In this document: one piece after another, positions 7,774 through 31,526 of the stretch
Layout of the letters: the number at the start of each line of letters is the position of its first letter
Position numbering within the stretch: the stretch's first letter is position 1
The notes under the pieces: model-generated
Databases searched by the model: none
Told to the model about the DNA's origin: nothing
Seen by the model: the letters and a program-made list of their open reading frames with translations, nothing else
Program-made: the position numbers and the translations under genes
DNA from: an uncultured Bacteriovoracaceae bacterium
GTDB taxonomy: Bacteria; Bdellovibrionota; UBA1018
Direction: 5' to 3'
Length of the DNA: 64,000 bases
Assembly (NCBI GenBank): GCA_964563795.1
Contig: CAZLYB010000004.1
Coordinates: 57,026-121,025 of the forward strand

Positions 7774-7830
7774 GCTGCATCCCCCCGGGATATTGGCTCT
7801 CAAGAACTCGGCTTGCGCAAGTTTTTTGTG

Positions 7831-15821: not shown

Positions 15822-17528
15822 ATGGCGAACGTTAAACGCGGTTTTTACTTTTTCATGGGCATGGCATTGGTCATGAGCCTGATTCCCTGGATGGCCTTGG
15901 CGGATGGCGGGATTCCGCTGAAACCCGAGGAACTCAAATACGCGATCTCCGACTTGCAGTTCGTCACGGATGCCGCCCAAAAAAACCAGGTGCGGCTCGA
16001 CGGCCTCATCTTCAGCGAATGCGGCGCTGCCGCGAAGAGCCTCGACGTCCGATGGACTCGCATCGATAAATCCACCCTCTCACCCATCGTCTTGGACCCC
16101 CAGAAAACATTCTGGGCCTGCCAAAAAAAATTCAGAGAGAAAAAAGAATCCTGTGAAAATCAAAATTGCGTCGCGCTCTCGAGCCTGGGCGCCAGCCAAT
16201 TCGAGCACTCGATGCTCGGCACCGAGGAACGGTCGCTGCAAGTCACCCTCGCCTCGAGCAACCCGAATCTCTTGAATTCGGGCTATCAAAAAAGTTCCGC
16301 AATCCGGCCCGTGACGATCGAATGGAAACCGGAAAAAGACGGCAAAGAAAAAGATCCGCGCGACGAAAGAGTGGCGAAAATCAAGGAAAAGGCGGCGAAG
16401 GCTCCCTTTACCGCCGCGGGCTTCAGAGCAGTGCAGGACGCGGGCGAAGAACTGGTCAAGATGAAAGTCATCAATTCTCAAGCCGCCCGCTACGCTTCCC
16501 ATCGCTTTCTCATCTTGGCTTTGAAATCCATTGAGGAAGGCAAATGCCAGAAGAACGATTTCCCCAGAGTGTTGGATCTATTGAAAGCGGCCAAGGATTT
16601 CTATCGGCCTTCTTCGATCAGCAGAAAGCGCACGTCCTCGGAAGATGAGGAGCGCCTGGGCCCCACCGAATCCGAGCTCACGGCGCTCGGCGAAAGCTAC
16701 ATCGAGGCGTGCACCATCGGAGAAAACGCGACGAGCAGAGGCTTGGAGCAAGCCTCCAAGCATTATCAAAGCCTGCTCGCGGTCTGTTCCACCCGCTGCG
16801 AGGACCGCGAAGAGCTAAAAGCTCTGGTGGGCACTTCGCGGTTTCAATCCCGACTCGTAAAATTGGATGAAATCATCGCGTCCGGGCAGCCCGCGAGCGG
16901 GTTGGTTTACATGAACACGAGCCGCAACCTTTACCGGGAGCTCTCCAATTCTTTCAGGCCATGCAGCAACCCCACCGCAGCTTCGTGGGGAAACGGCACT
17001 TGCAATCGGCTCGCGGAAAGCATGAATCAACTTTCCTTGGTTGAAGAGAAGCACCGTGAATATTCGCGCAAACTCGCCCAAGAAAAGCAAATCGCCGCTC
17101 AGCAAGCGCGATTGGACCGGCAGCAAGGGTCTCTCTCGAGCCGTCGCCAGGCAGGACTCCTTTTGCCGGGCGCAAGCTCAGGGCTGAACTCTTACCGATC
17201 CGCATCGGGAATGCGGGACCAGCGGCTCGCCCAGATGCAGCTGAGCGGACGCGCCGACTCGCTCGCGCCCCTTTCGACGCGCAACATGCGACTTGATCCC
17301 GCCGCGTCGGATCCTTACCGAATCCTGGTGCCGGGGATCGACAGCGAATACAGCCTTTCGCTCAATCGATTCAGCGGCCACAACCACTTGCCGGGAATCA
17401 CGGAGCGCTTTCAAGCGATGGACCGCAGCGCTTGGACCGCGAACGCTGTCTCCTCAGAGAAAGAGGACGAGGATTTGAGCACTCTGTTCGATGCTCCGAA
17501 CGGCGCGGGAAAGATCTTCTCGAACTGA
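15822..17528 (+). CDS. Secreted hypothetical protein (about 568 aa), Ser/Gln-rich C-terminal half
   Basis: The start was refined to MANVKRGFYFFMGMALVMSLIPWMALADG (signal peptide), preceded by a GAGGA ribosome-binding site. It contains several Cys pairs. No known domain was found. Confidence 0.5.
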   Translation: MANVKRGFYFFMGMALVMSLIPWMALADGGIPLKPEELKYAISDLQFVTDAAQKNQVRLDGLIFSECGAAAKSLDVRWTRIDKSTLSPIVLDPQKTFWACQKKFREKKESCENQNCVALSSLGASQFEHSMLGTEERSLQVTLASSNPNLLNSGYQKSSAIRPVTIEWKPEKDGKEKDPRDERVAKIKEKAAKAPFTAAGFRAVQDAGEELVKMKVINSQAARYASHRFLILALKSIEEGKCQKNDFPRVLDLLKAAKDFYRPSSISRKRTSSEDEERLGPTESELTALGESYIEACTIGENATSRGLEQASKHYQSLLAVCSTRCEDREELKALVGTSRFQSRLVKLDEIIASGQPASGLVYMNTSRNLYRELSNSFRPCSNPTAASWGNGTCNRLAESMNQLSLVEEKHREYSRKLAQEKQIAAQQARLDRQQGSLSSRRQAGLLLPGASSGLNSYRSASGMRDQRLAQMQLSGRADSLAPLSTRNMRLDPAASDPYRILVPGIDSEYSLSLNRFSGHNHLPGITERFQAMDRSAWTANAVSSEKEDEDLSTLFDAPNGAGKIFSN

Positions 17529-17529
17529 G

Positions 17530-19893
17530 TCAGCGGCGTTTTCGCCTGCCGGGGCTCGAGGCCCTTCTCTCGTCTGATTTGAAGTACTGCTCAATTTCCG
17601 AAGCGACGCCAGGCAATGTTTGAGCGAGAACCGGAAGCGGCGACACATTGGGGAACCCCTGTCGGAACTCCAGCCCAGGATCTCCATGGGTTTGAGGCCC
17701 GTAAAAGGTGCCTCCCATGTAAAAAAGAATCTGGGTGTGGATCGGCGTTCGAATGGCGATCGCCTGAAATCCAGAATTAAACCAGCCTTTAGCGTAATCA
17801 AATGGGAGCGCCGAATGGCCGGCGTTGAACACCTGGTCATACCAACCTGCCACATGAGTATGCCCGTTCGCCTCCGCACCAACGGCCGCGCGCCGATTCA
17901 AGGGAGAAACCGGCTTCCCGAAAACTCCGCCCATATGGCCATGCGAGATATTCAAGTTCGAAACGGAAAAGCGGTCATTCGGGCCGAGAATCTTGAAGTG
18001 CTCATTGTAGCTGACGCCGATGTCTTTTCTTAAGTACTCCTCAAAGGGATTCTTCCCTTCATTGGCGTAATTTTTCATGCGCGTGAGCGCGGCGGCGTTC
18101 CAATGGTTTTCAAGGTATTTTCCCGTCCTCAAAAGCCGCATCACGCGATCGTACCCATGATTGGAATACATATCGACGATGTAAGGTACGTAGCCCCGAG
18201 TCCTCTGCATCTGGTAGAGCAGGTCCTTCTGCATCGTCAGCCCGTACTTCATTTGCAAGTCGTAATCCCGTTCCAAGGGCTGCCGGATCAGGCTCGCGTT
18301 CGCCGAGAAATCGCCTTCGATGTGCCTCCCAAAAAATGAGAGGTCGAAATGATCATTGAAAACGAAGCTGAGAATGTCGACCGGCTTCCCATCAGTCCGC
18401 TTGAGCGCGGTCTCGGGATGGATGAACTGACGGTAAAAATTCTCGTAAAACGCGGGATCGTAGTTCGGCGAATGGGAGTCCCCGAAAACGACCGCCAGGA
18501 TGGGCAGATCCCTGACCTTCCCGTCAATTCCATAATGCTTATTGAGGTCCGAGAATCCGGGAGGGTATTCAATCGGCTCGCCCTTTTCGTTAGTGATCGT
18601 GAAGGATTCCTCGTTGAACGGCATTTCCCGCGGGCGATAGCGGGTTTCGAGCTTGTAGCGGAGATCCTCGGGAAGTCCCGCTATCTTCTCGAGCCTCATG
18701 GCGGCGATGCGCTGCATCTCATTCTGCAGCGCGCTGATCCTCGCTCCGATCGCGCGGCTCGCGAAATTCATGCCCAACGCGTTGATCGCGCCCGTGGTGA
18801 TGATCCCCGAGGGATACTTCGTGCTCGACGCCACGGGCACGAACAGGGAATGAGGGTGGACCAGCACCGAGAGGCCGCCCGGATCCGTGACTTTCACGAC
18901 TCCCGTTTGAGGCACGAGCGCGCGGTTGGGCAAAGGGATGCGATTGACCGAAAGCGACTGCCCGAACCCTCCCTGGAGAAAAAGAGTCTGGGGGCAAACG
19001 AAGCGATGCTGATCCGGGGCGCTGAAAACGTCCGGTAGGCCGCTTGACAGCCCATAAGCGGGAAAAGTAACCAAGGGCATCGCGCTCCCCTCGGCGCGGG
19101 ATGTAAAGTTCTGAAAAGTCATCATCGCATCGATGATCCCGGTTTGAACGGGGATTCCAGAGATGTAACCCGCCACCACCAGGGACTGACTCTTGCTCAC
19201 ATCGGCGATGAGCTGAGCGGCGATCTCATCATTGAAAGCCATGGTGTCCGGATACTGATTGAGGATGGAAGCGAGATCCTTCCACATCCCCGCATTCCCC
19301 TTGAATCCTTCATAGTAATCGCGAAAAAGGCCAAATCTTTTGCTGAAAATACGGATGAACCCGTCACGCTCATTTTTTTGGGTGCTGATCCCCAGGAACT
19401 CGGCGAACTCATTCAGCGTGGGGGGGTAACGGTTTTTGATCTTGGCCCATTCCCCCAGTTTTTTATAAAAAGCCCCGAGAATCGACTCGATCTGCTCAGC
19501 GCTGAAAATGGAATCCTGGATGGCCGCGATCCTCTCGGCGCTGTACTGCGCGGCTGCATTGACGTCCGGAGCGCCTTTTTTCCCGTAGATGGCGGGAATC
19601 TCGGCCCAAACCTCGCCCCAGCTCCCGAAAATCTGCTTGAGAGCGACCGGGGTGATGCCCAGCTCACGCTGCTCTTTTTCAGTGGGGAGCCTGAAATTCT
19701 CGAGGATGAATTTCAAGAAAGCCTGGACTTCTTTTTCCGTAGGCTTTTGAATCGCCTCCGTGGCTGCGGAGGCTTGGATGAAGGAGCCGCTCGCTGCAGC
19801 CGCGATGAGCTGCTCCTTGCAAGTTTTCTTTGCGGTCCCCGCATCGGCGAAGCTGGCAAAAAGCAGCGTGAGCAGCAGGAATGAACGCATCAT
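17530..19893 (-). CDS. Secreted protein with C-terminal calcineurin-like metallophosphoesterase domain
   Basis: The signal peptide is MMRSFLLLTLLFASFADA. Phosphoesterase motifs are VVFGDSHSP (GDxH), GHMGGVFGKP and NGHTHVAGW (GHxH). Its ATG overlaps the upstream gene stop (ATGA). Confidence 0.6.
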   Translation of the reverse strand: MMRSFLLLTLLFASFADAGTAKKTCKEQLIAAAASGSFIQASAATEAIQKPTEKEVQAFLKFILENFRLPTEKEQRELGITPVALKQIFGSWGEVWAEIPAIYGKKGAPDVNAAAQYSAERIAAIQDSIFSAEQIESILGAFYKKLGEWAKIKNRYPPTLNEFAEFLGISTQKNERDGFIRIFSKRFGLFRDYYEGFKGNAGMWKDLASILNQYPDTMAFNDEIAAQLIADVSKSQSLVVAGYISGIPVQTGIIDAMMTFQNFTSRAEGSAMPLVTFPAYGLSSGLPDVFSAPDQHRFVCPQTLFLQGGFGQSLSVNRIPLPNRALVPQTGVVKVTDPGGLSVLVHPHSLFVPVASSTKYPSGIITTGAINALGMNFASRAIGARISALQNEMQRIAAMRLEKIAGLPEDLRYKLETRYRPREMPFNEESFTITNEKGEPIEYPPGFSDLNKHYGIDGKVRDLPILAVVFGDSHSPNYDPAFYENFYRQFIHPETALKRTDGKPVDILSFVFNDHFDLSFFGRHIEGDFSANASLIRQPLERDYDLQMKYGLTMQKDLLYQMQRTRGYVPYIVDMYSNHGYDRVMRLLRTGKYLENHWNAAALTRMKNYANEGKNPFEEYLRKDIGVSYNEHFKILGPNDRFSVSNLNISHGHMGGVFGKPVSPLNRRAAVGAEANGHTHVAGWYDQVFNAGHSALPFDYAKGWFNSGFQAIAIRTPIHTQILFYMGGTFYGPQTHGDPGLEFRQGFPNVSPLPVLAQTLPGVASEIEQYFKSDERRASSPGRRKRR

Positions 19894-21299
19894 CGCCCTT
19901 CTCCCATTTGAGGAGGAATCAAGAGCTTCCGGCAATCCATTTTTCCGCCGAGCGCCTTCTTCGCCGTTTGTTCCGAGACTCCGAAGGCGAGCGAGACCGC
20001 CTGCGTGACGGTGTCCACCCCGTTGTACATTTTCACCGCCTCGCCGCCTCGCTGCATGCGGTAGTTCGAATCAAAAACCATGACTTGCGCGAGATCGACC
20101 GGATTTCCCGCCAAGGCGCTGGGATTGTGCTGCTGCAGACTGGGCACTGGCGCATAGAGCCAGGGAGGCGCGGTATTCAGCAAAATCAAGCGAAGCGGCG
20201 GCTGAGCGCGATTCATGTGCCGATCGAAATCCAGGACGGCGCGCGTGCTCCTCTCAAAAAGGGCGCGCACCTTGAGCAGGATCGAGATGTCATCATCGGC
20301 GTAGACGAGGACGTTCGGTCTCGGGTTCTCGGGCAGCTCCCGATCCATCCGGCGAAGCAGGACTTCCTGGATGAGGTGATTTAAGATCTTCACTTTGAGG
20401 TCGGCCAGGCTGATGTTCGGCTCATTGAATTGACTCACCGAAGTGGCGTCGCTCACCATGAGACGCGGATTGCTCAGCGCGTAGACCCGATCGATCAAGG
20501 ATCCAGCGGCGAGATCCCCGGAATTGATCAAGAGCTCTTTCGCCGCGGCCCATTCCACATCCGAATGCCCCCGATAAGTGAGAATGGACGAAGCCACCGG
20601 GAGCTCGGGCCTCGAGCTCAGCCGAAAGAGGGGGAAAAGCGGGCCGAACCTCCTGGTCTCAGCCATCCTCCCCACCGCTTCGATCAATGGCATATTCCCG
20701 GACGAGGGCGTCCTGAAGGCGCGATATGTTTGAATCGGATCAATATAATAAAATCTCGGGTTCAATTCTTGCCCGTTTGAAAGGCGAATGGGCTTGTCGT
20801 AGTAGGAGTTGCCCGGATTGGCGACCGACATCGCCCCGTCGTCATAGCGGCCCACCAGGTACTTCACCGGAAATTGATCGTAGGGCTGGATGTCGCTCCG
20901 CACGCCCTGCTCCCAATCCCGCATGGGCACATCGATGAACTCAGGGATGTCCCCCGCTGAAGCCAAGTCAAACAGTGGGCTTCCGTGCGTTTGCCATCGA
21001 AAAACCCTGAATACCGACGTTTCGTCGACCGCGAGATTGTAGTCGAAGTCATAAACGAAGAGACGGAGGGGCCCGAGATACGGCTCTTCTTCAGCCGCGA
21101 GCGGGCTGGACTTCTTTTTCGAATTTTTCGAGATCGTATTTTTTTTGGAAGATTTTTTCGCGACTGCTTTTTTCTTGGTCTCCGCGCGCGCGACGGACGG
21201 CGTTCCCATCTCCTCTAAAGAGAAGATGAACGCAAAAGCGCACACGAGCCCCCATTTGGCGAAAGTCCCCACCCCACCCATAGCGCTAGAGGCTAGCAC
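19890..21299 (-). CDS. Secreted hypothetical protein (469 aa in the track; start is GTG, an internal ATG lies 18 nt downstream)
   Basis: The N-terminus is hydrophobic (GTFAKWGLVCAFAFIFSL), followed by a Lys-rich linker. No known domain was found. Confidence 0.5.
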   Translation of the reverse strand: MLASSAMGGVGTFAKWGLVCAFAFIFSLEEMGTPSVARAETKKKAVAKKSSKKNTISKNSKKKSSPLAAEEEPYLGPLRLFVYDFDYNLAVDETSVFRVFRWQTHGSPLFDLASAGDIPEFIDVPMRDWEQGVRSDIQPYDQFPVKYLVGRYDDGAMSVANPGNSYYDKPIRLSNGQELNPRFYYIDPIQTYRAFRTPSSGNMPLIEAVGRMAETRRFGPLFPLFRLSSRPELPVASSILTYRGHSDVEWAAAKELLINSGDLAAGSLIDRVYALSNPRLMVSDATSVSQFNEPNISLADLKVKILNHLIQEVLLRRMDRELPENPRPNVLVYADDDISILLKVRALFERSTRAVLDFDRHMNRAQPPLRLILLNTAPPWLYAPVPSLQQHNPSALAGNPVDLAQVMVFDSNYRMQRGGEAVKMYNGVDTVTQAVSLAFGVSEQTAKKALGGKMDCRKLLIPPQMGEGR

Positions 21300-21440
21300 C
21301 AGGATTTTTGAAAAAGCAAAATTTAATTTGTTAAGGCCCGGGTTTTCGCCTGAAACGTCCCGAAAGCCGCATGGTAGGCGTCGACTCAGCGCGAGAAACC
21401 CGCTGCTAAAAGCGGCTGAATCAACTCAGGAATTATAATT

Positions 21441-21488
21441 AAATAATATTAGAATAAAATCTCGGCCGCTTGACCTGCAAGCCGAGAT
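21441..21488 (-). terminator. Rho-independent terminator candidate for the upstream minus-strand operon (560-aa gene)
   Basis: On the minus strand, the imperfect hairpin ATCTCGGCttgcaggtcaagcgGCCGAGAT is followed directly by TTTTATTCTAAT. It lies in the 330-bp AT-rich intergenic region 21300..21629. Confidence 0.4.
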
Positions 21489-21629
21489 GGGATATCGATA
21501 CATCCATTCGACGGGGGTTCTCAAAAGATTTCCCACTTTTTCTCCGGCTGCAGCACGACCTGCCCTGGCGGTTCGCGTTGCAGCAGAAGAAGCGGTGGGC
21601 GGTCAAAATTCCTCCGCTTGGAATTGAAA

Positions 21630-23312
21630 TCATGGCGCAATCCGCTCGCGATTGAGCCTTTTTAGCTCGATCTCCCGATCCCTTTTCTCGGCCAGTTTCT
21701 TCAGATCAGCCAAATCCTCAGCCGTGTAGTATTTCACGTCGGACAGCTTGATTAAAACCTTCTCAAGAAGAAGTTCCAGCTCATCCAGCCGCTTGGCGAT
21801 CCCGCTGACGTTCAGCCACCACTCATCCAAGGACTCATGATCCTGAATGGTCCCTTTCGTCCGTAAGGGCGCTTCTTTTCGCACTCTCTCCCTCATCCGC
21901 TCATAAGCTTCCTCGATCTCCCGATTTTCCTGAAGATACCGCCTCTTTTTGTCGAGGCGCTTGATTTCAAACGCCGAAGACTGCGAAGTGCTGGATTTTA
22001 TCTTGTTTTCTTTGTAATTCGCCTTGTTGTCCGCGTAAGCGAATTGACTGTAAAGACTCATGGGTGCGAGCTGGATTCGCAGAAAATCTCGGTGCTCGAG
22101 GAGATTCTCGACGTGGAGCTTCATCGCTTCGACTTCGCTTGCGGCCAGGAAAGGGATGTTCCGCGTTTTCTCATTCGGGAACGCGCGGGTAGCTTCCGCC
22201 TCCAGGGCCATGAGATCCAGGTCCAAATTTTGAAGCATGATGAGCAATCCCACCTCCAATGAATCGGAGGGATGAAAGTAATCCCGCGTGGGTTGCTGAT
22301 TTTTATCGTAAAGATAACCCATCAGGCCCGCTGTGGGAGCTGAGGCGATCGTGTAAGCTCCTGCGCGAGCGAGCCGCCTCAGCCATACCACTTTGAACGA
22401 TTTTTTCTCATCGGGATTATCGTACTGAATTTTTTTGTAATAATCAGAGACCTGGTCATAATAAGTTTTAAGGCGGGTCGGCTCCCGCACCGCGACGCTC
22501 AGCTCATCCGCTTTTTTGGAAAGCGGATTTCTGAGCCGATTCAAAACATCAACGAGTTCCTCCCCTTTTTTCCCGGCATTTTTAATGCGGTTCAATCCCC
22601 GGTTTTTCCAATCCACGGCTTTCTGGAACAGGCCCGCCCTTCCCGCGGATCGCCATGACCAGATCATGGTGATCCCCAGCATGGTCGCCGCGGTGGTCGC
22701 GAGCCAGCCGCTATGGCGGTCATAGCGCTTGAACAACTGCTCCATGCTCAATTCGGATTTGAGCAGGAGATCCGCGTAAGCCACTTGCTGGATGGGATTC
22801 CAGGAGTGGATCATCCGCGAAGTGAGGAGCGCGGTGATTTCATTCTGCGTCTCGGGGTACCCTTGGCACGCGGAAGGCACGAATTTCACGAAATAAGGCC
22901 AGATCTTCCTCCAGAGGCTTCCCCATGCCGTGGGCGCGGAGGGGCGGGACGACAGGATCAAGCTCTCGATCGGGAGCCGGATCAAATCATAATTGATCTG
23001 AAGATTGAAAAGCTCATCGAAGGCCTTCGAACCTTGGGCGGAAAAATCAAGGAGCCTGCTCAAATCCTCCTGCTTGCGCTTCTGAAACGGACCGGCGACG
23101 CGGGGATCGTCCAAAAACTCGCTCAGCCTTTTTCTTCGCTCCTCCTGGATCGCTCCGATGTTTTTATCCAATTCCTGGAGGTTGACCGCGCTGAGCTGCT
23201 CCTCGGCCTGGATCAGCTTCGACTCCACGTCACCGGGCGAGCAGAACTGCTCAGCGGCCGCCGGCCTTAGAGCAATGAGTGGAATGAGGAGGAGAGCGGA
23301 GAAAGTTCTCAT
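21630..23312 (-). CDS. Secreted hypothetical protein with coiled-coil segments (560 aa)
   Basis: The signal peptide is MRTFSALLLIPLIALRPAAA. Several Lys/Glu-rich heptad-like stretches are present. No known domain was found. Confidence 0.5.
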   Translation of the reverse strand: MRTFSALLLIPLIALRPAAAEQFCSPGDVESKLIQAEEQLSAVNLQELDKNIGAIQEERRKRLSEFLDDPRVAGPFQKRKQEDLSRLLDFSAQGSKAFDELFNLQINYDLIRLPIESLILSSRPSAPTAWGSLWRKIWPYFVKFVPSACQGYPETQNEITALLTSRMIHSWNPIQQVAYADLLLKSELSMEQLFKRYDRHSGWLATTAATMLGITMIWSWRSAGRAGLFQKAVDWKNRGLNRIKNAGKKGEELVDVLNRLRNPLSKKADELSVAVREPTRLKTYYDQVSDYYKKIQYDNPDEKKSFKVVWLRRLARAGAYTIASAPTAGLMGYLYDKNQQPTRDYFHPSDSLEVGLLIMLQNLDLDLMALEAEATRAFPNEKTRNIPFLAASEVEAMKLHVENLLEHRDFLRIQLAPMSLYSQFAYADNKANYKENKIKSSTSQSSAFEIKRLDKKRRYLQENREIEEAYERMRERVRKEAPLRTKGTIQDHESLDEWWLNVSGIAKRLDELELLLEKVLIKLSDVKYYTAEDLADLKKLAEKRDREIELKRLNRERIAP

Positions 23313-23315
23313 AAA

Positions 23316-24899
23316 CTAATTCAACGAATCTGACACGAAGTCACTGAAGTTTTTGAGATTTGAATAAAGCGTAGGCGTCATGACATCCGCCAATCTCTCA
23401 TTGCTTTTGGAATAAATCATAGCGAGCACTTGCAGATAAATTCGGTCCATCCAGGGATGCACACGCCCCTGCTTGAGATCCTCGAGGAAAGGGGTCTGCA
23501 CTGATTCACTCCATTTTTTCAGCGCGCCCCGCATCCGAGCTGGCCAGGCCGCTCGCGCTTCGCGAAGGAGGTTCGCATTCACGCTCGCCTCGCGCAACGG
23601 GGCGATCATCCGATCCACGTAAGATCTCATGCTCCCCTGAGGCAGCGTCGATACCGCAAAACTCATCGCCGTGAGCCAGTTGCGGTCCGAAAACTTCCTC
23701 TTATTTTGATCCTGCTTCTGCAAAAATAAAATCGCTTCGAGTTGCCTATAAAGAGGGTCAACTCCATAACCCCGAGAGCGAATGACATTCATCAAATCTT
23801 GGCTCAAACCTGAGAGCTGATCCGGGGTTCTCTTATTGTAATCCCTCCAGAGCTTGAAGATCTTCCAGTCTCTTTCGACCGTCAGTAAATCGGCAGCTGA
23901 AATGATGTCCCCAGCCGAAGAGATCAAATCCCCGCTGCTCGCAAGCGGATTCTCCCTGAGGCTCAAAAACTTCCATACGGAATTTTTGAAGTTATTCTCG
24001 AGCTTGGTCCTGGCTTCGTAGGCTTTATAGGTGGGATAGGATTCAAGTAGGAAAGGGGCGACAAAAGTCACAAAATCCAAAGTTTTAGTGACAGGCGCGG
24101 GAATGGGCCGAACCGCGTAATTAATCACCCGAATGGTTCTCGCGGCCGCGCCTAAAACCGAAATGACCGCCAATGAAGCTCCAGCGTAATAAATCTCTCC
24201 CCAAGCCTTCTCGATATTGTACTCCATTGATTTTCTGATGGCCGAAGGGAGCGAAACATTCAGATACCGGCTGGGGGGGAGCGGCAATTGAATGTTGCTT
24301 GAGCTCAAAAAATATCCCGGGGCAACCGCCTGCACACCTTTTAACCCGGCCGCTGAAAGCATCCGCGCATTTCTCACGGCGAAGGAGAGCGTTCTGTATT
24401 CGCTGATTTTATTTTTAAAGTTCAAAAAGCCGCTGATGGCTTCCCCTTTGGAAATGACGGCGGAACCCGCCAAGATCAGGAACGCCCCAATGTTATCTAT
24501 GTCCTGCGCTTCCCCGGCCCGGTAAAAATGATTTTCTTCAATCGAGGGCAAAAATGAGAGCGAGTACATCTGCTCCGCTTGGCTCAAAAGCTCCGTGATC
24601 GCGAACGGATGCCGGGGATATCTGTCCGCGATCAGCCGGCTGCGGGCGTCATACTGGCTTTTCTCGCTATCATCGAACAGTTTTAGGGTGAGATAGGCCA
24701 CGCAATCCCGGTATTTTTGGCGGAGCGGGGAATCCGGGTCAAGCTCGCACTCGCTGGCCGTGGCGAGCTCGATCATTTTATCCACCGAATCGCTGAAGCC
24801 CAACGGTCGATTGGAGCACGACACTTGAGCGTACCCGCTCGCGGGAACAAAAATGCCTGCGACCAAAAAAACCTGCGCCAAGAAAAAAGTTTTTCTCAC
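23316..24899 (-). CDS. Hypothetical exported protein (about 527 aa from a GTG start)
   Basis: The start was refined to GTG giving MRKTFFLAQVFLVAGIFVPASGYAQ (signal peptide). This GTG overlaps the stop of the 1478-aa gene (GTGA). The track ORF extends 98 codons further upstream in another reading of the same frame. Confidence 0.45.
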   Translation of the reverse strand: MRKTFFLAQVFLVAGIFVPASGYAQVSCSNRPLGFSDSVDKMIELATASECELDPDSPLRQKYRDCVAYLTLKLFDDSEKSQYDARSRLIADRYPRHPFAITELLSQAEQMYSLSFLPSIEENHFYRAGEAQDIDNIGAFLILAGSAVISKGEAISGFLNFKNKISEYRTLSFAVRNARMLSAAGLKGVQAVAPGYFLSSSNIQLPLPPSRYLNVSLPSAIRKSMEYNIEKAWGEIYYAGASLAVISVLGAAARTIRVINYAVRPIPAPVTKTLDFVTFVAPFLLESYPTYKAYEARTKLENNFKNSVWKFLSLRENPLASSGDLISSAGDIISAADLLTVERDWKIFKLWRDYNKRTPDQLSGLSQDLMNVIRSRGYGVDPLYRQLEAILFLQKQDQNKRKFSDRNWLTAMSFAVSTLPQGSMRSYVDRMIAPLREASVNANLLREARAAWPARMRGALKKWSESVQTPFLEDLKQGRVHPWMDRIYLQVLAMIYSKSNERLADVMTPTLYSNLKNFSDFVSDSLN

Positions 24900-27800
24900 G
24901 GTACACCGCCGAGCAGGTGGGTGATCCCCTTCATTTCCAGGAACCCGAAGCTTCCCGCGTCTTTTTGCAAATAGAAGCTGTTGTAAATTTCCCGGAGCTC
25001 GGGATGATTCAAGAAATCCTTCAACGCGATCGAAAACCGCCTGAATTCCTCCTGATTGACCTTCGGCCATTGCTCGTTCGACAGGAAAAAACGGTCGACC
25101 AGTCGGCCGACGTTCTTGGGCAGTGCTTGAGTGGGGCCGAACGCGGAGCTCTGCGGGTTCAATGGACTGCTCCCCCGGGATTCCACCCACCTTAATACCT
25201 CATAAAAATCCCAGTCCCACTCTCTCTCCGCGAATACTCTGCGGGCGGCCTCAAATTCATTGGAGTCCACCTCTGCTTGCTTCATGAGATCAAGCCGCTG
25301 CCCGGCATTCTGACCTCCGAGGTTGATGATTTTCGCTTCGAGCAGCTTGGAGGGAACCTTGCCCTGCTCGGGGTTCGCCGGATCCCAGTTCTTGCCGAAG
25401 CGGATCACCCCGTTCTGACCGTAGTACGCCTCATTGAACGCTCTTCGGACGAAGATCGGATCCAGCGTTTTCACGTTGCCACGGGCCAGCCGAAAGCTCT
25501 CGCGCCAGCTGAAGCCGCCCGACGAAGCGCTCGCCTCGAAATTCTTCCAGCTGCTCACGACTTCGGCCATGGCCTCCGAATCCCCCTTGAGCCGGTAATA
25601 GAGCCGCATCAATCCCAACCCGTTCGCCTCGTTCGCTTTTTCCGAAAGGCGCAGGGAGAGGTTCGTGAAGGCGCGCCTGCCCCTCAAATAATCCTGCATC
25701 GCCTCCGCTGACGAGTCGATGAGCGTGCGCCGATACTTGATGCTGATCGCTTCCAACAGGCTTTTTGAGGAAAGGTCAAACGTGGCCTGCTCTCCGTACA
25801 ACGCGACAAGCTCGGGATGGAGCTCCTTCAGCATCAGTTGAAAACTTTTCTCTTCCGCGTCGATCTCGCTCAAGACCCTCGCCGCGGCCCTCCTGAACTT
25901 GGCGATGTTCGCCGCGGCCCTCTCCACCTCGTCGGCAAGCCCGATGATTTCATCATCCAAAACCGTGATGTTTTGGATCGCGGGCAGATCCGCATCGATA
26001 CCCCACTCATCATTCAACTTCCTGGCGATGATCGCCAAACGCTTGAGGACCGTGGTTCGCAGAGCGATCCAATACCCCTGGTTCGCCACTCCGCCCTCGA
26101 GGCTGATCGCCGCCTCGATTTCATCTTTGGTCACCCCCGCCAACCGCATATCTTTGAAAAAACTGTTGAATTTGTACTCCTTCACAGCCAGGCTGATCCC
26201 TTGCGCGAAGATGCCGAGCCCCAAGATCAGCGCCAGCCCCCCCACCGCCAGGGCCTGTTCATTCACTTTTTCGCGGAGGTCTTTTTTCGAGGCCTCATAT
26301 TCGGCCAGGTTGAAGAAGCTCGCCTCCGAGCTGCTGAAATAAAAGCTGTTGATGTTTTGGTAGTTCACGCTCGAGCCCCGAATGAGCGTATCGCCGTAGT
26401 AAACACCGGTCCCCAGGGCGAAAAGAGCGAGCAAGTTCCAAGGCGCGATCACGTCATCGAGATGCGGCCCCAAGATCGGGCCGAATCGATTCGTGAAAAA
26501 AACGGCGCCCGGCTGCAAGAATCGTTGGATCAACGGCCGCTCCGACTCGAGAAAAAATTTCAGGCCCACGATCCTCGCGAGCACTTTTCCCACAATCACG
26601 CCCCCCGCGTAATAGCCGATGTACTTCCCGATCTCCTTGGCCTCCCTCGACCAGAGCGGGCCGTAGAATTTGTCGGGAGCCCGATCCAAGATCGCCCGCC
26701 TCTGCACCTCGGAGAGCGCTGGAAACTGGGACTGAAATCTCTTTTGGAACTGCGAAGAATGCTCGACCAGCGTGAGCATCCGATCGATTTTTTCGGTGAG
26801 TTGTTCCAGCTTTTCGTAATCCCCGTCGCCCAAAAGCGCGAGTTTTTCGGCGGATTGAAAGGCGAAGTTTTTGATCCCCGATTCGGCGCGCGTGATCCAG
26901 TAATCGGCCTGAACAAGATTTTCCGCGTCCGTTGGCCGATCCTCGCCCGCCTGAATATCGAGGTTCGCCAGAATTTCATAGAGCCTCTTCTGCTCCTGCT
27001 CACTGGGACGCTTGGCGAATTCAAAGCGCTTATCCGCCCCGATCCGCTCCCCGATGCTATAAGCGAAATCCTTGAAGGCGCCTGAGACCGTGAATGGATC
27101 GCCGTCCGTCAAGCTCCATTGATTGAAATTCAAGATATTGGAATCGATCAGGCTGCTTTGCAGCATGGCTCGGTAAACCGCGATCTGAGCGGGATTCAGC
27201 GGCAAATCCGCGAGCTTCACCGTGGCGCCCGACTTTTTATGGCCTTGTTGGAGAAATCCGAGCCAGCAGCCCTGCTTCAAGAAAAGCCTCAGCGAATCGC
27301 GGAGAATCACTTTTTTCCTCACGTCCAATTCTTCTTCGGCTTTGTTCCTGTTTTGAGTCCCCGGGATCACGGGCCATCCGATGTACCGCTCGAACGCGGA
27401 TGAATTCACTTCGCAATCTTTTTCGGCCAGCTCGGCGAGCACGACCGGCTGAAACCCGATCGGGTTGTTCAAGACGATTTTCCCGATCATCGAAAGATAA
27501 AGCTGCTGCGCTTGCCGATAGCTCGGAGCGTTTCGGATCAAATCCCACCAGGGTCTCGTCAGGCCTTCCGAGACTGAGCTTCCGGACAGCAAGCCCAAGG
27601 ATTGAATCAAAATCGGGAGATCCACCTCATGCAGATAAGCGGGCTCCTGCGTCGCGCGAAAAATCGCCTTGGAGCGAGAAACCAAGTCCTGGACGTACGG
27701 AGCGCGGATCTTCTCCTCGTAGACTTTCTCTTCGATCGATTTCGCCGTCTGGATCAAATCCGCGATTTCGGGGGCGGTAACGAGCTGCTTTTTGAGCTCT

Positions 27801-29332
27801 TGCCTCCGCTCGGAGAGCAATCTTCTGATCTCCCGGTGCTGGCGCGCTTTCTCGGTCTTGATCTTTGGAGCGTCTTTTTTCTCCGCGACGGGAAGCAGCG
27901 TGTTCAAGATGGGCTCGCTCGCCTGCGAGAGGGCGAGCGAAATCATGTCCGCAAAAACCGCGCGGAGCTCCGTCTCAGTGTAAGCCGAGAAAGGGGCGGC
28001 CCACGTCTCAAGCTGCTCGAGGAGCTTGCCTTGAAAGAGCATGTGCTCGGTGATCACCCAGTCGTCGATGAGAACGGCGACTTCTTTGGCGTTGAGCTCG
28101 GCTGCCTGGGGCAGGAGCACCCGCACCACCGACTCAGCGAGCTCAGGAGTCACATACTCAAAACTCAACGACTGTCGGCGGCGGATTTGCTGGTTCAAGG
28201 CCTCCGCCTGCTCATCGCTCAGGGAGAAAACCCCCGTTTTTGAATCGGCGCCGCCTAACTTCGAATCTTTAGCCAGGGGAAGAGTGAACGCGTACCGCTT
28301 CGCGGCCTCCTGCAGCGAGAGCCTGAGCCGGACTTCCACCCGATCCTTGTCGTTCTCCCAAAACCGCGCGGACTGATCCGCCAGGGCCGGGATATCCTTG
28401 AAGAGCTTCGCGTTGAACTTGGGGGGAGCCTGCACCGGATCGCGCGTGGTGACGTTGAGGACGCCCAGGGATTCGATCAAAAAGGCAGACAAGCCGTAGC
28501 GCGCGGCGCTGAACCATGAGGCTTCGCTCGCATCGCGATCCCTCGCGCGCGCCTCGATCTCCTCGAGCAACTTGCTCGAGAGCTGGAGGCTGATCTCACT
28601 GCGACTGTTGGGGTCCGCCAAAAGCGAGCCGTAGGATTTTTTGGAGAGGATGACGAACGATTGATTCTTCTGAAGCAGCGCCTTGAGCGAGCTCGCCGAG
28701 AGGAATCCCTCGAACTCGTTGTACCCATTCAGGCTATAAAAAGTCCGGACGGGAATTTTGAGCTCGAACTGGTCTTCTGCCTCTTGAGCCCTGAGCGGAG
28801 CGACCCAGGAACCCTGGATCCGCGCGTGCGCGGCTCGAAGCTGGGCGATCTTCATGAGGCGGGAGAAGTAGTCCATCATGAGAAAAAGGCGATTGTCGGT
28901 CTTGAAACCCTTTGAGGAAGGAATGAACGCGTGCTGCCGGAAGTTCTCCTCCAGCGTCGATTTCCAGCTGAGGAGATCGCTTTGGACCTTGAGCAAGTCT
29001 CCGCTGAATTGAATGACGTCGAATGGCCCGGAGGTGACGCTGTTCTTGTTGTTGAAGACGCGGTCGAGCCGCCGGAGCTCACTGCCGAGCCGGATGGAGG
29101 TCTCGGTCAGCCTCACGACTTCGACTTTGCCGCTGGAGGCGGTTGGAGGCTTGGCTTTTTTCAGGGTCTTGGGGGGCGCTTGGTCGATAGCGGCTTCAAA
29201 GGCCTCGACCCGCTCCATCTCTTCGTCCGCGCGCGCGGGCTTGGGAAAAAGAGCCGCCACCCCTGATATCTGGATGATCAGGGGGAAGGAGAGGATGATC
29301 CTGGCGCGTGAACCCCGGTGAAAAAGGCGCAT
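24896..29332 (-). CDS. Giant (1478 aa) exported or membrane-anchored hypothetical protein
   Basis: It has an N-terminal signal peptide (SFPLIIQISGVAALFPKPARA), a predicted helix-rich body, and a mid-protein hydrophobic cluster (GYYAGGVIVGKVLARIVG, LLALFALGTGVYYG, ALAVGGLALILGLGIFAQGISLAV) that implies 3 TM helices. No recognisable catalytic motif was found. Confidence 0.55.
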   Translation of the reverse strand: MRLFHRGSRARIILSFPLIIQISGVAALFPKPARADEEMERVEAFEAAIDQAPPKTLKKAKPPTASSGKVEVVRLTETSIRLGSELRRLDRVFNNKNSVTSGPFDVIQFSGDLLKVQSDLLSWKSTLEENFRQHAFIPSSKGFKTDNRLFLMMDYFSRLMKIAQLRAAHARIQGSWVAPLRAQEAEDQFELKIPVRTFYSLNGYNEFEGFLSASSLKALLQKNQSFVILSKKSYGSLLADPNSRSEISLQLSSKLLEEIEARARDRDASEASWFSAARYGLSAFLIESLGVLNVTTRDPVQAPPKFNAKLFKDIPALADQSARFWENDKDRVEVRLRLSLQEAAKRYAFTLPLAKDSKLGGADSKTGVFSLSDEQAEALNQQIRRRQSLSFEYVTPELAESVVRVLLPQAAELNAKEVAVLIDDWVITEHMLFQGKLLEQLETWAAPFSAYTETELRAVFADMISLALSQASEPILNTLLPVAEKKDAPKIKTEKARQHREIRRLLSERRQELKKQLVTAPEIADLIQTAKSIEEKVYEEKIRAPYVQDLVSRSKAIFRATQEPAYLHEVDLPILIQSLGLLSGSSVSEGLTRPWWDLIRNAPSYRQAQQLYLSMIGKIVLNNPIGFQPVVLAELAEKDCEVNSSAFERYIGWPVIPGTQNRNKAEEELDVRKKVILRDSLRLFLKQGCWLGFLQQGHKKSGATVKLADLPLNPAQIAVYRAMLQSSLIDSNILNFNQWSLTDGDPFTVSGAFKDFAYSIGERIGADKRFEFAKRPSEQEQKRLYEILANLDIQAGEDRPTDAENLVQADYWITRAESGIKNFAFQSAEKLALLGDGDYEKLEQLTEKIDRMLTLVEHSSQFQKRFQSQFPALSEVQRRAILDRAPDKFYGPLWSREAKEIGKYIGYYAGGVIVGKVLARIVGLKFFLESERPLIQRFLQPGAVFFTNRFGPILGPHLDDVIAPWNLLALFALGTGVYYGDTLIRGSSVNYQNINSFYFSSSEASFFNLAEYEASKKDLREKVNEQALAVGGLALILGLGIFAQGISLAVKEYKFNSFFKDMRLAGVTKDEIEAAISLEGGVANQGYWIALRTTVLKRLAIIARKLNDEWGIDADLPAIQNITVLDDEIIGLADEVERAAANIAKFRRAAARVLSEIDAEEKSFQLMLKELHPELVALYGEQATFDLSSKSLLEAISIKYRRTLIDSSAEAMQDYLRGRRAFTNLSLRLSEKANEANGLGLMRLYYRLKGDSEAMAEVVSSWKNFEASASSGGFSWRESFRLARGNVKTLDPIFVRRAFNEAYYGQNGVIRFGKNWDPANPEQGKVPSKLLEAKIINLGGQNAGQRLDLMKQAEVDSNEFEAARRVFAEREWDWDFYEVLRWVESRGSSPLNPQSSAFGPTQALPKNVGRLVDRFFLSNEQWPKVNQEEFRRFSIALKDFLNHPELREIYNSFYLQKDAGSFGFLEMKGITHLLGGVP

Positions 29333-29417
29333 AACCGCGGCACTTTACACCACTTGGCGCAGTTTTATTACATTAAAATAATTTATAAAAATCAGGACCT
29401 TAGGGACTCGGCATTAT

Positions 29418-30602: not shown

Positions 30603-30704
30603 CTTCGAATTGATTCCTTGAATATGCACTTGATCCCCCCTTGCACACGAACTTCAAGATTAAATTCACATAACTCAGAACAAGCGGAGATGCAAGCCGG
30701 CCGC

Positions 30705-31526
30705 TCAGGGAGCGGCAATCCAGGCGAGCTGCCCAATCACCCAAGCATTGCGCTTCTGGTCCTTGAAGAGGAATCCCAGGGAGCTGGAGGGGTGAGCCTC
30801 GGGCGAAAGTCCTTGAATTTTAGCCACTAACTCCCTCCCTCGATTTTCTTGAAGGGTGGGCCATCCCTGAATTTTCACCGCATCCATGCGTTTGATGGCT
30901 ATGCGGACGCAGTCGCTGAGGCTAATGCCCGCAAGCGCTTCCAAATCCAAGTCATCCGCCACTACCGGCTCATACTCTCCGGGCAGACTCGGGCTGATCT
31001 GGCAGTCGCTCCAGCGGTGCTCTTTGAACTTTGCCCATGAAAACAAAGGGATCCCCCAAGCCTCCCAAGGCGTGTAAGCCCAGGGAACGGGAGCGTCAAA
31101 AGCCTCTCGTTCTGAAAGCCGGTATTCAATGGGAATGATCTGTCCCGTCAAGGAGTAAGGGTTGAACGCCTCGGTAGGGAAGGTACGGGTCGAACCCCCG
31201 TAGCCGAAAGTCACTCGACTGATGAAGGCTTCATTGTCCGTCCACAGCGTTTTTTTATCCGAGAGCTTTGACTTGGAGCGGAGCAAACCCACCGCTTGGT
31301 CGACGCATTTCTCAGGGATGCGATGGGCTTCGATGTCTTGGACTTTATGGTGATAAGGCCCGTAAACCAGCCACTTTTGATCGCCATCGTAATGCCCGGT
31401 GAGCGAGCAGCGGAACGGGAAATCGGCTGATTCGAGGGCGTGCGAAACTGGCCCCCCGCTTAATAGGAGCTGAAAAATAAAAACCAATTTGGTCCATGGA
31501 CTTAGACGGATCATCAAGAAAGTCAC
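30705..31526 (-). CDS. Secreted hypothetical protein (273 aa)
   Basis: The N-terminus is a signal peptide (MTFLMIRLSPWTKLVFIFQLLLSGGPVSHA). It is Trp/Tyr-rich. No known domain was found. Confidence 0.45.
   Translation of the reverse strand: MTFLMIRLSPWTKLVFIFQLLLSGGPVSHALESADFPFRCSLTGHYDGDQKWLVYGPYHHKVQDIEAHRIPEKCVDQAVGLLRSKSKLSDKKTLWTDNEAFISRVTFGYGGSTRTFPTEAFNPYSLTGQIIPIEYRLSEREAFDAPVPWAYTPWEAWGIPLFSWAKFKEHRWSDCQISPSLPGEYEPVVADDLDLEALAGISLSDCVRIAIKRMDAVKIQGWPTLQENRGRELVAKIQGLSPEAHPSSSLGFLFKDQKRNAWVIGQLAWIAAP

What the first reader, a model, noticed from the sequence alone, without database searches (positions are those of the whole stretch)
17530..29332. 17 kb same-strand array of large exported hypothetical proteins (1478, 527, 560, 469 and 801 aa) with start/stop overlaps, ending in a metallophosphoesterase
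Five consecutive genes on the minus strand all carry N-terminal signal peptides. The 1478-aa and 527-aa genes overlap by GTGA, and the 469-aa and 801-aa genes overlap by ATGA. This implies two co-translated modules separated by a 330-bp AT-rich gap that holds a terminator-like hairpin. The 1478-aa protein is predicted helical with an internal 3-TM cluster. The last protein carries a C-terminal calcineurin-like phosphoesterase (GDxH, GNH-like, GHxH motifs). None has an assignable function. Such arrays are candidates for an envelope-associated or secreted machinery, for example prey-interaction or surface-structure factors in a predatory lineage. The function cannot be read from the sequence.
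Basis: seen in the sequence. Interest (0 to 1): 0.6.

Follow-up and report, generated by a model that had tools for sequence, protein, structure and literature searches.

The report
Exported phage-A1-like phosphoesterase cassette beside orphan genes
The "array" is not one machine: it is two separate small operons in a predatory-type (Bdellovibrionales-like) genome. One is a rare conserved pair that includes an exported relative of the phage T5 protein that destroys host DNA; the other is three large membrane proteins, the largest of which has no detectable relative anywhere.

Summary
The sequence observation holds, with small corrections. The five genes span 11.8 kb, not 17 kb, and the last gene is 787 aa when the ATGA overlap is used.

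The five genes are not co-conserved. They form two units separated by a terminator-like hairpin.

Unit 1 (1478, 527 and 560 aa):
- An exhaustive HMMER scan of representatives of about 15 billion proteins found only the 1478-aa protein itself.
- The function of all three is unknown.

Unit 2 (469 and 787 aa):
- This is a conserved, translationally coupled cassette. It occurs in four other loci, one of them a Bdellovibrionales genome bin, in unrelated neighbourhoods. A deeper version occurs in L008.
- The 787-aa protein is a diverged, signal-peptide-bearing member of the phage T5 A1 "DNA transfer protein" family (phrog_1745). All five metallophosphoesterase motif blocks are intact.
- In distant relatives, the N-terminal extension matches sigma-70 region 3 HTH repeats.
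- The 469-aa partner carries a co-linear HAD-like motif set (DxDG / T / K / ED). No HMM confirms this.

Best reading: Unit 2 is an exported DNA-binding phosphodiesterase plus a phosphatase that digest DNA outside the cytoplasm, paralleling T5 A1 and Dmp. The activity is inferred, not shown. Both AlphaFold models failed.

The parts
24896..29332 (-). 1478-aa orphan protein. It has a signal-peptide-like N-terminus (residues 1-35, ARA|DE) and a large N-terminal domain, and its codon usage looks native.
   Evidence: ORF. The word-index search found only itself. An exhaustive phmmer of residues 279-1478 against 1.84e9 representatives found only itself. No Pfam, NCBIfam, PADLOC, PHROG or PDB hit. GC3 is 0.75, like the housekeeping genes. 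No internal repeats or paralogs.
26183..26617 (-). Hydrophobic cluster of the 1478-aa protein (residues ~906-1050). It has two strong segments (961-975 and 1025-1050) and one weak, charged segment (910-926).
   Evidence: Kyte-Doolittle scans.
29333..29417 (-). 85-nt AT-rich spacer upstream of the 1478-aa gene. It is a likely promoter region of its own for the 1478-527-560 unit.
   Evidence: Sequence. This is an inference only; the consensus scan gave no match above background.
23316..24899 (-). 527-aa protein. Its GTG start overlaps the stop of the 1478-aa gene (GTGA). It has a signal peptide (GYA|QV) and internal hydrophobic segments at 134-151 and 236-259.
   Evidence: The exact product is an NCBI gene call and a singleton cluster. 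No family or PDB hit.
21630..23312 (-). 560-aa protein, 3 nt after the 527-aa gene. It has a signal peptide (AAA|EQ) and a charged C-terminal tail.
   Evidence: Singleton cluster. No family or PDB hit.
21452..21488 (-). Terminator-like hairpin (9-bp stem) plus a U-run, ending the 1478-527-560 unit.
   Evidence: strand folding: dG -15.8 kcal/mol, z -2.25. Sequence. The simple scanner missed it because of its loop-size limit.
21432..21437 (-). TATAAT hexamer in the AT-rich stretch after the hairpin. It is a candidate -10 element for the 469-787 unit.
   Evidence: Read from the sequence. Inference only.
19890..21299 (-). 469-aa exported partner protein. It has a signal peptide (ARA|ET), a Lys/Ser-rich linker unique to this copy, and HAD-like motifs: I LFVYDFDYNL (D84, D86), II SILT241, III K302, IV VYADD336.
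   Evidence: Homologs lie immediately upstream of the A1-like gene in L001/L002, L003 and L007 at 39-43% identity. A distant homolog is at the same position in L008 (hhalign score 21.6, 0 of 200 shuffles reach it). The motif-I regex hits only these ORFs among all six-frame ORFs of the window and loci. No HMM or PDB hit. The AF2 model is unusable.
17530..19893 (-). 787-aa exported T5-A1-family metallophosphoesterase. Its ATG start overlaps the stop of the 469-aa gene (ATGA).
   Evidence: phrog_1745 at E=5e-9. T5 A1 itself is a member of phrog_1745.
19840..19893 (-). Signal peptide of the 787-aa protein (residues 1-18, ADA|GT). It is followed by a Cys that is conserved in all full-length relatives.
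   Evidence: N-termini of L001, L003, L004, L007 and L008 also look like signal peptides.
19294..19731 (-). N-terminal extension with two 'P-T-x-x-E-x-x-x-x-L-G-I' HTH-like units (residues ~55-200). It aligns to the sigma-70 region-3 repeats of distant relatives.
   Evidence: Pfam Sigma70_r3: L004 at E=3.8e-9 and L008 at E=1.5e-16 with 3 stretches. Alignment. There is no direct Pfam hit in the window protein.
17638..19158 (-). A1-like metallophosphoesterase domain (residues ~246-752) with motif blocks GDSH471-474, D514, SNH577-579, HGH651-653 and GHTH677-680.
   Evidence: All five blocks align with T5 A1. D472, H474, D514, N578, H579, H651 and H680 are invariant in 8 family members. phmmer chain from T5 A1: L009 3.6e-38, L008 7.7e-28, L004 9.5e-21, window 1.5e-5. 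Three relatives hit phrog_221 'metallo-phosphoesterase'.

Best explanation
The region is not a single system. It holds two independent, internally translationally coupled transcription units inside a roughly 20-kb run of exported-protein genes in a Bdellovibrionales-like genome.

Unit B (469 + 787 aa) is a conserved two-gene cassette.
- The 787-aa protein is exported through Sec. It uses tandem sigma-70-region-3-like HTH units to bind DNA, and an intact binuclear-metal phosphoesterase centre of the phage T5 A1 type to cleave it. It would act outside the predator's cytoplasm, in the periplasm, the bdelloplast or the medium.
- The co-translated 469-aa partner is also exported. It is most likely a HAD-type phosphatase that removes phosphate from the released nucleotides so that they can be taken up. 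Alternatively it is a stoichiometric subunit of the nuclease.
- This mirrors the T5 pre-early pair A1 (host-DNA destruction) and Dmp (a HAD-type dNMP phosphatase).

Unit A (1478 + 527 + 560 aa) is a lineage-restricted trio of signal-peptide proteins with internal hydrophobic segments. They are most likely inner-membrane-anchored envelope proteins with large periplasmic domains. Their function is unknown, and nothing ties them to Unit B.

What is shown: the gene structure, the lack of co-conservation, A1-family membership, the intact motifs and the conserved pairing. What is inferred: export, DNA as the substrate, the HAD chemistry and any role in predation.
For: Two units:
- 4-nt overlaps and a 3-nt spacer within the units.
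- A 330-nt gap with a terminator-like hairpin between them.

Pair conserved, trio not:
- L001/L002, L003 and L007 carry 469- and 787-homologs side by side in different neighbourhoods (urocanase and a DEAD helicase in L003). They show nothing similar to 1478/527/560.
- L008 has a signal-peptide protein with a canonical DFDGSL motif 6 nt upstream of a 799-aa A1-like gene.

A1 family:
- phrog_1745 at E=5e-9 for the window protein. 7 of 8 family members hit it, the best at 5.7e-93.
- T5 A1 is itself a member of phrog_1745.
- A stepwise phmmer chain links T5 A1 to the window protein.
- The five motif blocks align.
- tblastn hits phage 'DNA transfer protein'.
- The L009 type matches 1132 phage records annotated A1, DNA transfer protein or metallophosphatase.
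- A1 is reported as necessary and sufficient for host DNA degradation (bioRxiv 10.64898/2026.04.02.716235).

DNA binding: Sigma70_r3 repeats in L004 and L008, aligned to the window N-terminus.

HAD-like partner: co-linear motifs survive at about 18% identity. T5 Dmp shows the same motif types.

Orphan trio. Native codon usage of all five genes.
Against: - No nuclease activity has been demonstrated biochemically even for T5 A1.
- Pfam Metallophos does not match the window protein, its relatives or T5 A1.
- The HTH/sigma-r3 match is not detectable directly in the window protein.
- No HMM library or PDB sequence search recognises the 469-aa family as HAD. It shows no significant similarity to T5 Dmp.
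- Both AlphaFold2 models failed (pLDDT 33), so no fold evidence exists.
- The signal peptides were judged by eye.
- The cassette is rare: 3 loci among 185,579 species genomes and 4 among the metagenome records. It cannot be a general predation function.
- 527 and 560 were not searched exhaustively.
Confidence: 0.55

Rival explanations
1. One envelope or secretion machine. All five, or all eight, same-strand exported proteins assemble into a single surface or prey-interaction apparatus.
For: All genes are on the same strand, all products look exported, and the spacing within sub-groups is tight. Ten consecutive genes with signal-peptide-like N-termini is a non-random clustering.
Against: The 469+787 pair occurs without the other genes in four other loci, and the trio occurs nowhere else. 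A terminator-like hairpin and a promoter-like AT stretch separate the two groups. The upstream genes for the 869-aa AAA protein and the 403-aa protein have foreign codon usage (GC3 0.37 and 0.49), unlike the five.
Confidence: 0.08
2. Unit B is a periplasmic phosphate- or nucleotide-scavenging pair that acts on small phosphoesters (nucleotides, cyclic or oligo-nucleotides, phospholipid head groups) and not on polymeric DNA. It would be comparable in role to UshA/CpdB-type periplasmic metallophosphoesterases.
For: Metallophosphoesterase motifs alone do not specify the substrate. Many exported bacterial members of this superfamily are nucleotidases (established knowledge; PMC10454023 is listed). 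A HAD-like partner fits a phosphatase pathway.
Against: The specific family is T5 A1, whose only known phenotype is destruction of the host chromosome. Relatives carry 2-3 sigma-70 region-3 HTH repeats, which bind DNA.
Confidence: 0.22
3. The region is a decayed prophage or mobile-element remnant. The A1-like gene would be a phage leftover and the orphan genes would be phage 'dark matter' with no cellular role.
For: The A1 family is overwhelmingly a phage family. The adjacent stretch at 30-34 kb has low GC, and its AAA protein hits a phage ATPase/protease family.
Against: The five genes have native GC3 and codon usage. The window has no tRNA genes, and no phage structural or integrase family was hit among the proteins scanned. 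Viral-contig scans found no relatives of the 787 family, 1478, 527 or 560. The bacterial versions have gained signal peptides, HTH repeats and a conserved partner, and they keep every catalytic residue, which indicates selection for a cellular function.
Confidence: 0.07
4. The 469-aa protein is not an enzyme. It would be a chaperone, inhibitor or structural subunit of the exported A1-like enzyme, analogous to the A1-A2 heterodimer of T5.
For: Translational coupling suggests 1:1 production. T5 A1 works with a partner, A2. No HMM supports a HAD assignment.
Against: The DxD / T / K / ED motifs are among the few residues conserved between the 469 family and the distant L008 protein. That pattern is what an active HAD site would predict.
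Confidence: 0.25

Closest known systems
Phage T5 A1 ('DNA transfer protein', phrog_1745), a predicted metallophosphatase required and sufficient for host-DNA degradation
   Same: There is significant profile homology over the catalytic half. All five metallophosphoesterase motif blocks are aligned and conserved. It is encoded near or with a HAD-type phosphatase gene (T5 dmp lies three genes from A1).
   Different: The window protein is chromosomal and bacterial. It carries a Sec signal peptide and a roughly 230-residue N-terminal HTH-like extension. Direct phmmer to T5 A1 gives only 1.5e-5. It lacks an A2-like partner and has a 469-aa exported partner instead. It would act outside the producer's cytoplasm.
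Calcineurin-like metallophosphoesterase superfamily nucleases (Mre11/SbcD type)
   Same: It has the same motif set (DxH, D, NH, H, GHxH) for a binuclear metal centre. The T5 authors note that A1 shares features with such nucleases.
   Different: There is no Pfam PF00149 match, and no PDB sequence match with E-value up to 1 for the protein or up to 10 for its family profile. The fold could not be verified.
Secreted DNases of Bdellovibrio bacteriovorus (Bd0934, Bd3507, Bd1244, Bd1934)
   Same: These are signal-peptide-bearing nucleases released into the bdelloplast to digest prey DNA, and they are individually dispensable (PMC7925074). This is the same proposed biological role.
   Different: No sequence comparison with these proteins was run here, so any relationship to them is untested. 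The cassette is rare: it was found in 3 of the 185,579 species genomes scanned, none of them a named B. bacteriovorus record.
HAD-superfamily phosphatases (e.g. T5 Dmp, a 5'-dNMP phosphatase)
   Same: The four motifs are co-linear, with the nucleophile DxD at the end of a hydrophobic strand. T5 Dmp shows DLDGT / CTAR / IDD.
   Different: There is no statistically significant similarity to Dmp or to any HAD model. There is a very large (~150 aa) insert between motifs I and II. The protein is exported.

Membership tests
Phage T5 A1 / DNA transfer protein family (phrog_1745) | Significant match to the family profile | tested here: met
   E=5e-9 for window residues 448-704 against profile positions 265-516 of 542. 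7 of 8 relatives match, the best at 5.7e-93. T5 A1 itself scores 8.5e-244.
Phage T5 A1 / DNA transfer protein family (phrog_1745) | Full-length correspondence to A1 | tested here: inconclusive
   The window protein aligns directly only over the C-terminal catalytic part. Relatives L009, L008 and L005 align over A1 residues ~95/203-555. The window region 246-440 is linked only through L009.
Phage T5 A1 / DNA transfer protein family (phrog_1745) | Causes degradation of target-cell DNA | not testable with these tools
   This needs biochemistry or expression tests.
Calcineurin-like metallophosphoesterase superfamily | Five conserved motif blocks: DxH, (G)D, (G)NH, H, GHxH | tested here: met
   GDSH471-474, D514, SNH577-579, HGH651-653 and GHTH677-680. 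Seven ligand or catalytic residues are invariant in 8 sequences.
Calcineurin-like metallophosphoesterase superfamily | Match to the Pfam Metallophos model (PF00149 or clan) | tested here: not met
   No Pfam hit for the window protein, its relatives or T5 A1. Three relatives do hit phrog_221 'metallo-phosphoesterase' at 2.3e-8.
Calcineurin-like metallophosphoesterase superfamily | Alpha-beta-beta-alpha sandwich fold | tested here: inconclusive
   The AlphaFold2 model has mean pLDDT 32.8. No fold search was run on it.
HAD superfamily (469-aa protein) | Motifs I (hhhDxD), II (S/T), III (K/R) and IV (D/E-D), in order and conserved | tested here: met
   D84/D86, T241, K302 and D335/D336 are conserved in 4 close homologs and in the distant L008 protein (DFDGSL, LTAR, RK, IEDT).
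HAD superfamily (469-aa protein) | Significant match to any HAD profile or solved HAD structure | tested here: not met
   Pfam with E-values up to 5-10, PHROGs up to 5, NCBIfam up to 0.1 and a PDB profile search up to 10 gave nothing. hhalign against T5 Dmp aligns only motif I, with probability 1%.
HAD superfamily (469-aa protein) | Rossmannoid core fold with squiggle and flap | tested here: inconclusive
   The AlphaFold2 single-sequence model has pLDDT 33.4.
Sigma-70 region 3 HTH domain (N-terminus of the 787-aa protein) | Pfam PF04539 match above the gathering score | tested here: not met
   There is no hit in the window protein or its N-terminal fragment. Homologs L004 (37 bits) and L008 (60.6 bits, 3 stretches) do match, and these segments align to window residues ~64-100 and ~155-190.
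Single co-conserved five-gene system (operon-level 'machine') | Genes co-occur in related genomes | tested here: not met
   Only the 469+787 pair co-occurs. 1478, 527 and 560 are absent from every related locus, and 1478 has no homolog at all.

The most novel reading that the evidence does not exclude
Some predatory Bdellovibrionota may have domesticated the phage T5 host-takeover enzyme A1. They would have added a signal peptide, DNA-binding sigma-region-3 repeats and a HAD nucleotidase partner, creating an exported 'prey-chromosome shredder' that works like the T5 pre-early A1/Dmp programme but from outside the victim's cytoplasm. The neighbouring orphan trio (1478/527/560), with hydrophobic hairpins embedded in huge soluble domains, could be a newly evolved, lineage-specific membrane-inserting complex that gives such enzymes access to the prey.
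Probability: 0.1. Interest if true: 0.75.

Novelty: new variant of a known kind. Interest (0 to 1): 0.45.

Why it matters
- Which enzymes clear the prey chromosome in predatory bacteria is still open. The four studied B. bacteriovorus DNases are individually dispensable (PMC7925074; PMC3593177).
- An exported, HTH-bearing relative of T5 A1 would be a new kind of candidate. A1 is the one phage protein shown to be necessary and sufficient for rapid host-DNA destruction.
- It would also give T5 research soluble bacterial homologs in which to test whether A1-type enzymes are nucleases.
- The conserved coupling to a HAD-like protein suggests a two-step path from DNA to nucleotide to nucleoside, shared by a phage and a predator.
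- Separately, a 1478-aa, natively coded protein with no relative among about 15 billion proteins is a clear example of lineage-restricted 'dark' proteome.
- The cassette is rare, and every activity is inferred, so its weight is that of a testable lead.

Tried and rejected
1. I concatenated 527+560+469+403+273 into one 2232-aa query for the last homologous-protein search. It returned nothing, not even the self proteins known to be in the database. This was a technical failure and is uninformative. As a result, 527 and 560 never had a proper remote-homology search.
2. AlphaFold2 on the 787-aa protein (2-sequence alignment) and on the 469-aa protein (single sequence) gave pLDDT of about 33. No fold search was attempted on these models.
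4. Pfam, NCBIfam and PADLOC gave nothing for the five proteins. PDB sequence searches also gave nothing.
5. Viral-contig scans for the 787 family, 1478, 560 and 527 were empty. A tblastn of the 469-aa protein against phages was also empty.
6. Direct similarity between the 469 family (or the L008 369-aa protein) and T5 Dmp is not significant.
7. A link to the AAA ATPase was considered, because a 24%-identical AAA gene also lies upstream in L001. It was rejected as part of the cassette because it is absent from L003 and L007.
8. [quoted passage not shown] I treated it as unrelated on that description alone, without a sequence comparison.
9. The Rfam scan and the repeat scans of the region found nothing relevant.
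Full report
**Gene structure.** On the minus strand the window carries the following ORFs:

| Coordinates | Product |
|---|---|
| 24896-29332 | 1478 aa |
| 23316-24899 | 527 aa, GTG start |
| 21630-23312 | 560 aa |
| 19890-21299 | 469 aa |
| 17530-19893 | 787 aa |

- The junctions are as described: ccGTGAg for 1478/527, cgATGAtg for 469/787, and TAGtttATG for 527/560.
- NCBI gene calls with exactly the 1478-, 527-, 560- and 787-aa products exist in the protein collection. Each is a singleton cluster from one 132,186-bp contig.
- The stated interval is 11.8 kb. The '17 kb' figure is reached only by adding three further same-strand genes: 403 aa (29418-30629), 273 aa (30705-31526) and an 869-aa AAA ATPase (31582-34191).
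- GC1/GC2/GC3 and codon usage of the five genes resemble the housekeeping genes of the window (GC3 0.62-0.75). The AAA gene (GC3 0.37) and the 403-aa gene (0.49) look foreign.

**Export signals and clustering.**
- All five N-termini have a basic n-region, a hydrophobic core and an AxA-type site: ARA|DE, GYA|QV, AAA|EQ, ARA|ET and ADA|GT.
- A crude script flags 16 of 51 window genes as signal-peptide-like. Together with inspection by eye of the three it missed, ten consecutive genes from 14151 to 34194 qualify. The clustering of exported proteins is therefore real.
- The hydrophobic cluster in the 1478-aa protein is confirmed at residues 910-926 (weak, charged), 961-975 and 1025-1050.
- No dedicated signal-peptide or topology predictor was available.

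**Operon structure.**
- The 330-nt gap between the 560- and 469-aa genes contains a 9-bp-stem hairpin (21459-21488) followed by UUUUAUU (dG -15.8 kcal/mol, z -2.25). An AT-rich stretch with a TATAAT follows.
- An 85-nt AT-rich spacer precedes the 1478-aa gene.
- The sequence therefore supports two units, [1478-527-560] and [469-787].
- The generic promoter/terminator scan was no better than shuffles. These elements are inferences.

**Co-conservation test.**
- The 787-aa protein has only one non-self cluster in the word-index search of 5.8e9 clusters (P0002, 44% identity).
- Its contigs (L001/L002), a Bdellovibrionales genome bin (L003) and a metagenome contig (L007) all carry a 469-homolog (39-43% identity) immediately upstream of the 787-homolog (42-44%). 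In L001 the two overlap by 4 nt.
- The neighbourhoods differ. L003 has urocanase and an amidohydrolase on one side and a DEAD helicase and FtsJ on the other. L001 has DUF4423, a P-type ATPase and pirin.
- No ORF in any related locus resembles 1478, 527, 560, 403 or 273, even at phmmer E-values up to 1. No other window gene is syntenic with these loci.
The 469+787 pair is a genuine conserved cassette.

**The 787-aa protein.**
- Pfam, NCBIfam, PADLOC and PDB sequence searches gave nothing.
- PHROGs matched phrog_1745 'DNA transfer protein' at E=5e-9. Phage T5 A1 (NC_005859, 1706-3376) is a member of that family at 8.5e-244.
- Seven of eight family members hit phrog_1745 (best 5.7e-93). Three hit phrog_221 'metallo-phosphoesterase'.
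- phmmer with T5 A1 gives a graded chain:

| Target | E-value | Note |
|---|---|---|
| L009 | 3.6e-38 | 439 aa, no signal peptide, typical phage type; matches 1132 phage records, |
| L005 | 2.7e-28 | |
| L008 | 7.7e-28 | |
| L004 | 9.5e-21 | |
| window | 1.5e-5 | |

- A joint alignment places all five metallophosphoesterase blocks of T5 A1 opposite the window's blocks. The pairs are YGDIH/FGDSH, HD/ND, SNHD/SNHG, HGH/HGH and GHTH/GHTH.
- D472, H474, D514, N578, H579, H651 and H680 are invariant in eight sequences.
- The relatives come from Bdellovibrionales, Bacteriovoracaceae and Pseudobdellovibrionaceae bins. The full-length ones all start with signal-peptide-like segments followed by a conserved Cys.
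- A 2026 preprint reports that A1, a predicted metallophosphatase, is the sole pre-early gene necessary and sufficient for host-DNA degradation. Its in vitro nuclease activity is still untested.
- An earlier analysis notes that A1 is membrane-associated and forms a heterodimer with the DNA-binding protein A2.

**The N-terminal extension.**
- Residues ~20-245 have no counterpart in phage A1.
- In L004 this region matches Pfam Sigma70_r3 (E=3.8e-9, two stretches). In L008 it matches at E=1.5e-16 with three stretches, plus weaker HTH-type hits.
- These segments align with two 'PTxxExxxxLGI(S/T)' units of the window protein. A PDB profile search weakly picked the same motif in FliA.
- The window protein itself does not reach significance. 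DNA binding is therefore inferred by homology of position.

**The 469-aa partner.**
- No library recognises it.
- The family conserves hhhDxDGN (D84, D86), LT(x)GG (T241), K302 and Y(x)(D/E)D (D335/D336). These have the order and strand context of HAD motifs I-IV.
- In L008, a 369-aa signal-peptide protein lies 6 nt upstream of the A1-like gene. It has a canonical LILTDFDGSL right after its signal peptide, followed by GMLTAR, RKINVL and VVLIEDT.
- hhalign of the 469 family against this protein gives a co-linear alignment with score 21.6 and E 0.055. None of 200 shuffles reaches that score.
- A motif-I regular expression hits only these five ORFs among all six-frame ORFs of at least 100 aa in the window and loci.
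- I take this as probable distant homology. It suggests that a HAD-like partner is an old feature of the exported A1-like genes. L004 lacks one; its upstream gene looks like a small beta-barrel protein.
- T5 Dmp, encoded three genes from A1, shows the same motif types (DLDGT, CTAR, IDD). It has no significant similarity to the 469 family. The parallel is therefore functional, not demonstrated common descent.

**The trio.**
- The 1478-aa protein has no relative in the word-index search.
- For residues 279-1478, an exhaustive phmmer scan of 1.84e9 representatives of about 15 billion proteins also found no relative.
- It has no repeats, no paralogs and no similarity to 527 or 560.
- 527 and 560 are singleton clusters with no family, PDB or viral hit.
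- The only deep search attempted for 527 and 560 failed technically. Their orphan status is likely but not shown.
- With cleavable signal peptides and strongly hydrophobic internal segments, the simplest topology is an inner-membrane anchor with large periplasmic domains. Nothing links them functionally to the cassette.

**Mechanism and alternatives.**
- Most likely (about 0.55 overall), Unit B encodes an exported DNA-binding phosphodiesterase of the A1 type together with a HAD-type phosphatase or obligate subunit. They would digest DNA outside the cytoplasm. In a predatory lineage that DNA would be prey or environmental DNA.
- Rivals considered:
  - a small-ester scavenging pair (0.22);
  - a non-enzymatic partner role for the 469-aa protein (0.25, not exclusive of the main model);
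  - a single five-gene machine (0.08);
  - a prophage remnant (0.07).
- Structure prediction could not arbitrate, because both models have pLDDT of about 33.

**Comparison and novelty.**
- The 787-aa protein is a member of the T5 A1 family with a new architecture (signal peptide, HTH repeats, A1 domain), a new genomic setting and a new partner.
- Literature searches found no paper linking Bdellovibrio with 'DNA transfer protein'. The known Bdellovibrio secreted DNases are the four B. bacteriovorus proteins named; I did not compare their sequences with this cassette.
- I rate it a new variant of a known kind, of moderate interest. It is a concrete, testable candidate for extracellular or prey-DNA degradation. 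It is rare and entirely inferential at the level of activity.

Noticed in passing
window 31582-34191 (-): An 869-aa AAA+ ATPase with a hydrophobic N-terminus and very low GC (0.42, GC3 0.37), so it is probably recently acquired. It hits phrog_4871 'ATP-dependent protease' (3.6e-33) and matches the PADLOC IetA and DolB ATPases weakly. A 24%-identical AAA gene also lies upstream of the cassette in L001, but not in L003 or L007.
   Followed up: partly
window 14151-34194: Ten consecutive genes on both strands all have signal-peptide-like N-termini. They include a 475-aa Laminin_G_3/ConA-like protein and 590-, 403- and 273-aa proteins. The run is flanked by a Glu/Leu/Phe/Val dehydrogenase gene and the arginine succinyltransferase (AstA / aldehyde dehydrogenase / M20) genes.
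   Followed up: partly
window 5713-7803 (-): Three tandem ~195-aa signal-peptide proteins, about 30% identical to each other, share a Cys just after the predicted cleavage site. They form a small paralogous family of exported proteins.
   Followed up: partly
L008 1193-3592; L004 9779-12076: Signal-peptide-bearing proteins carry two or three Pfam Sigma70_r3 repeats (E down to 1.5e-16) fused to a phage-A1-type phosphoesterase domain. This is an unusual place to find a sigma-factor DNA-binding module.
   Followed up: partly
window 21100-21180 (residues ~41-66 of the 469-aa protein): A Lys/Ser-rich low-complexity insert (KKKAVAKKSSKKNTISKNSKKKSS) follows the signal peptide. It is absent from all homologs of the 469-aa protein.
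   Followed up: no
window 17528-17530: The convergent 590-aa (+) and 787-aa (-) genes end one base apart, leaving no intergenic room for a terminator. A terminator-like hairpin for the + strand lies inside the 3' end of the 787-aa gene (17557-17572).
   Followed up: no
window 25817-27085 (+): A 422-aa ORF lies antisense to the 1478-aa gene. It is probably a shadow ORF caused by the high GC3 of the coding strand, not a gene.
   Followed up: no
L009 777-2096: A 439-aa A1-type protein without a signal peptide sits on an 11-kb metagenome contig. It is 37% identical to an Ochrobactrum jumbo-phage 'metallophosphatase domain-containing protein', so the contig is probably a phage contig. It served as the bridge between T5 A1 and the bacterial exported forms.
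   Followed up: partly
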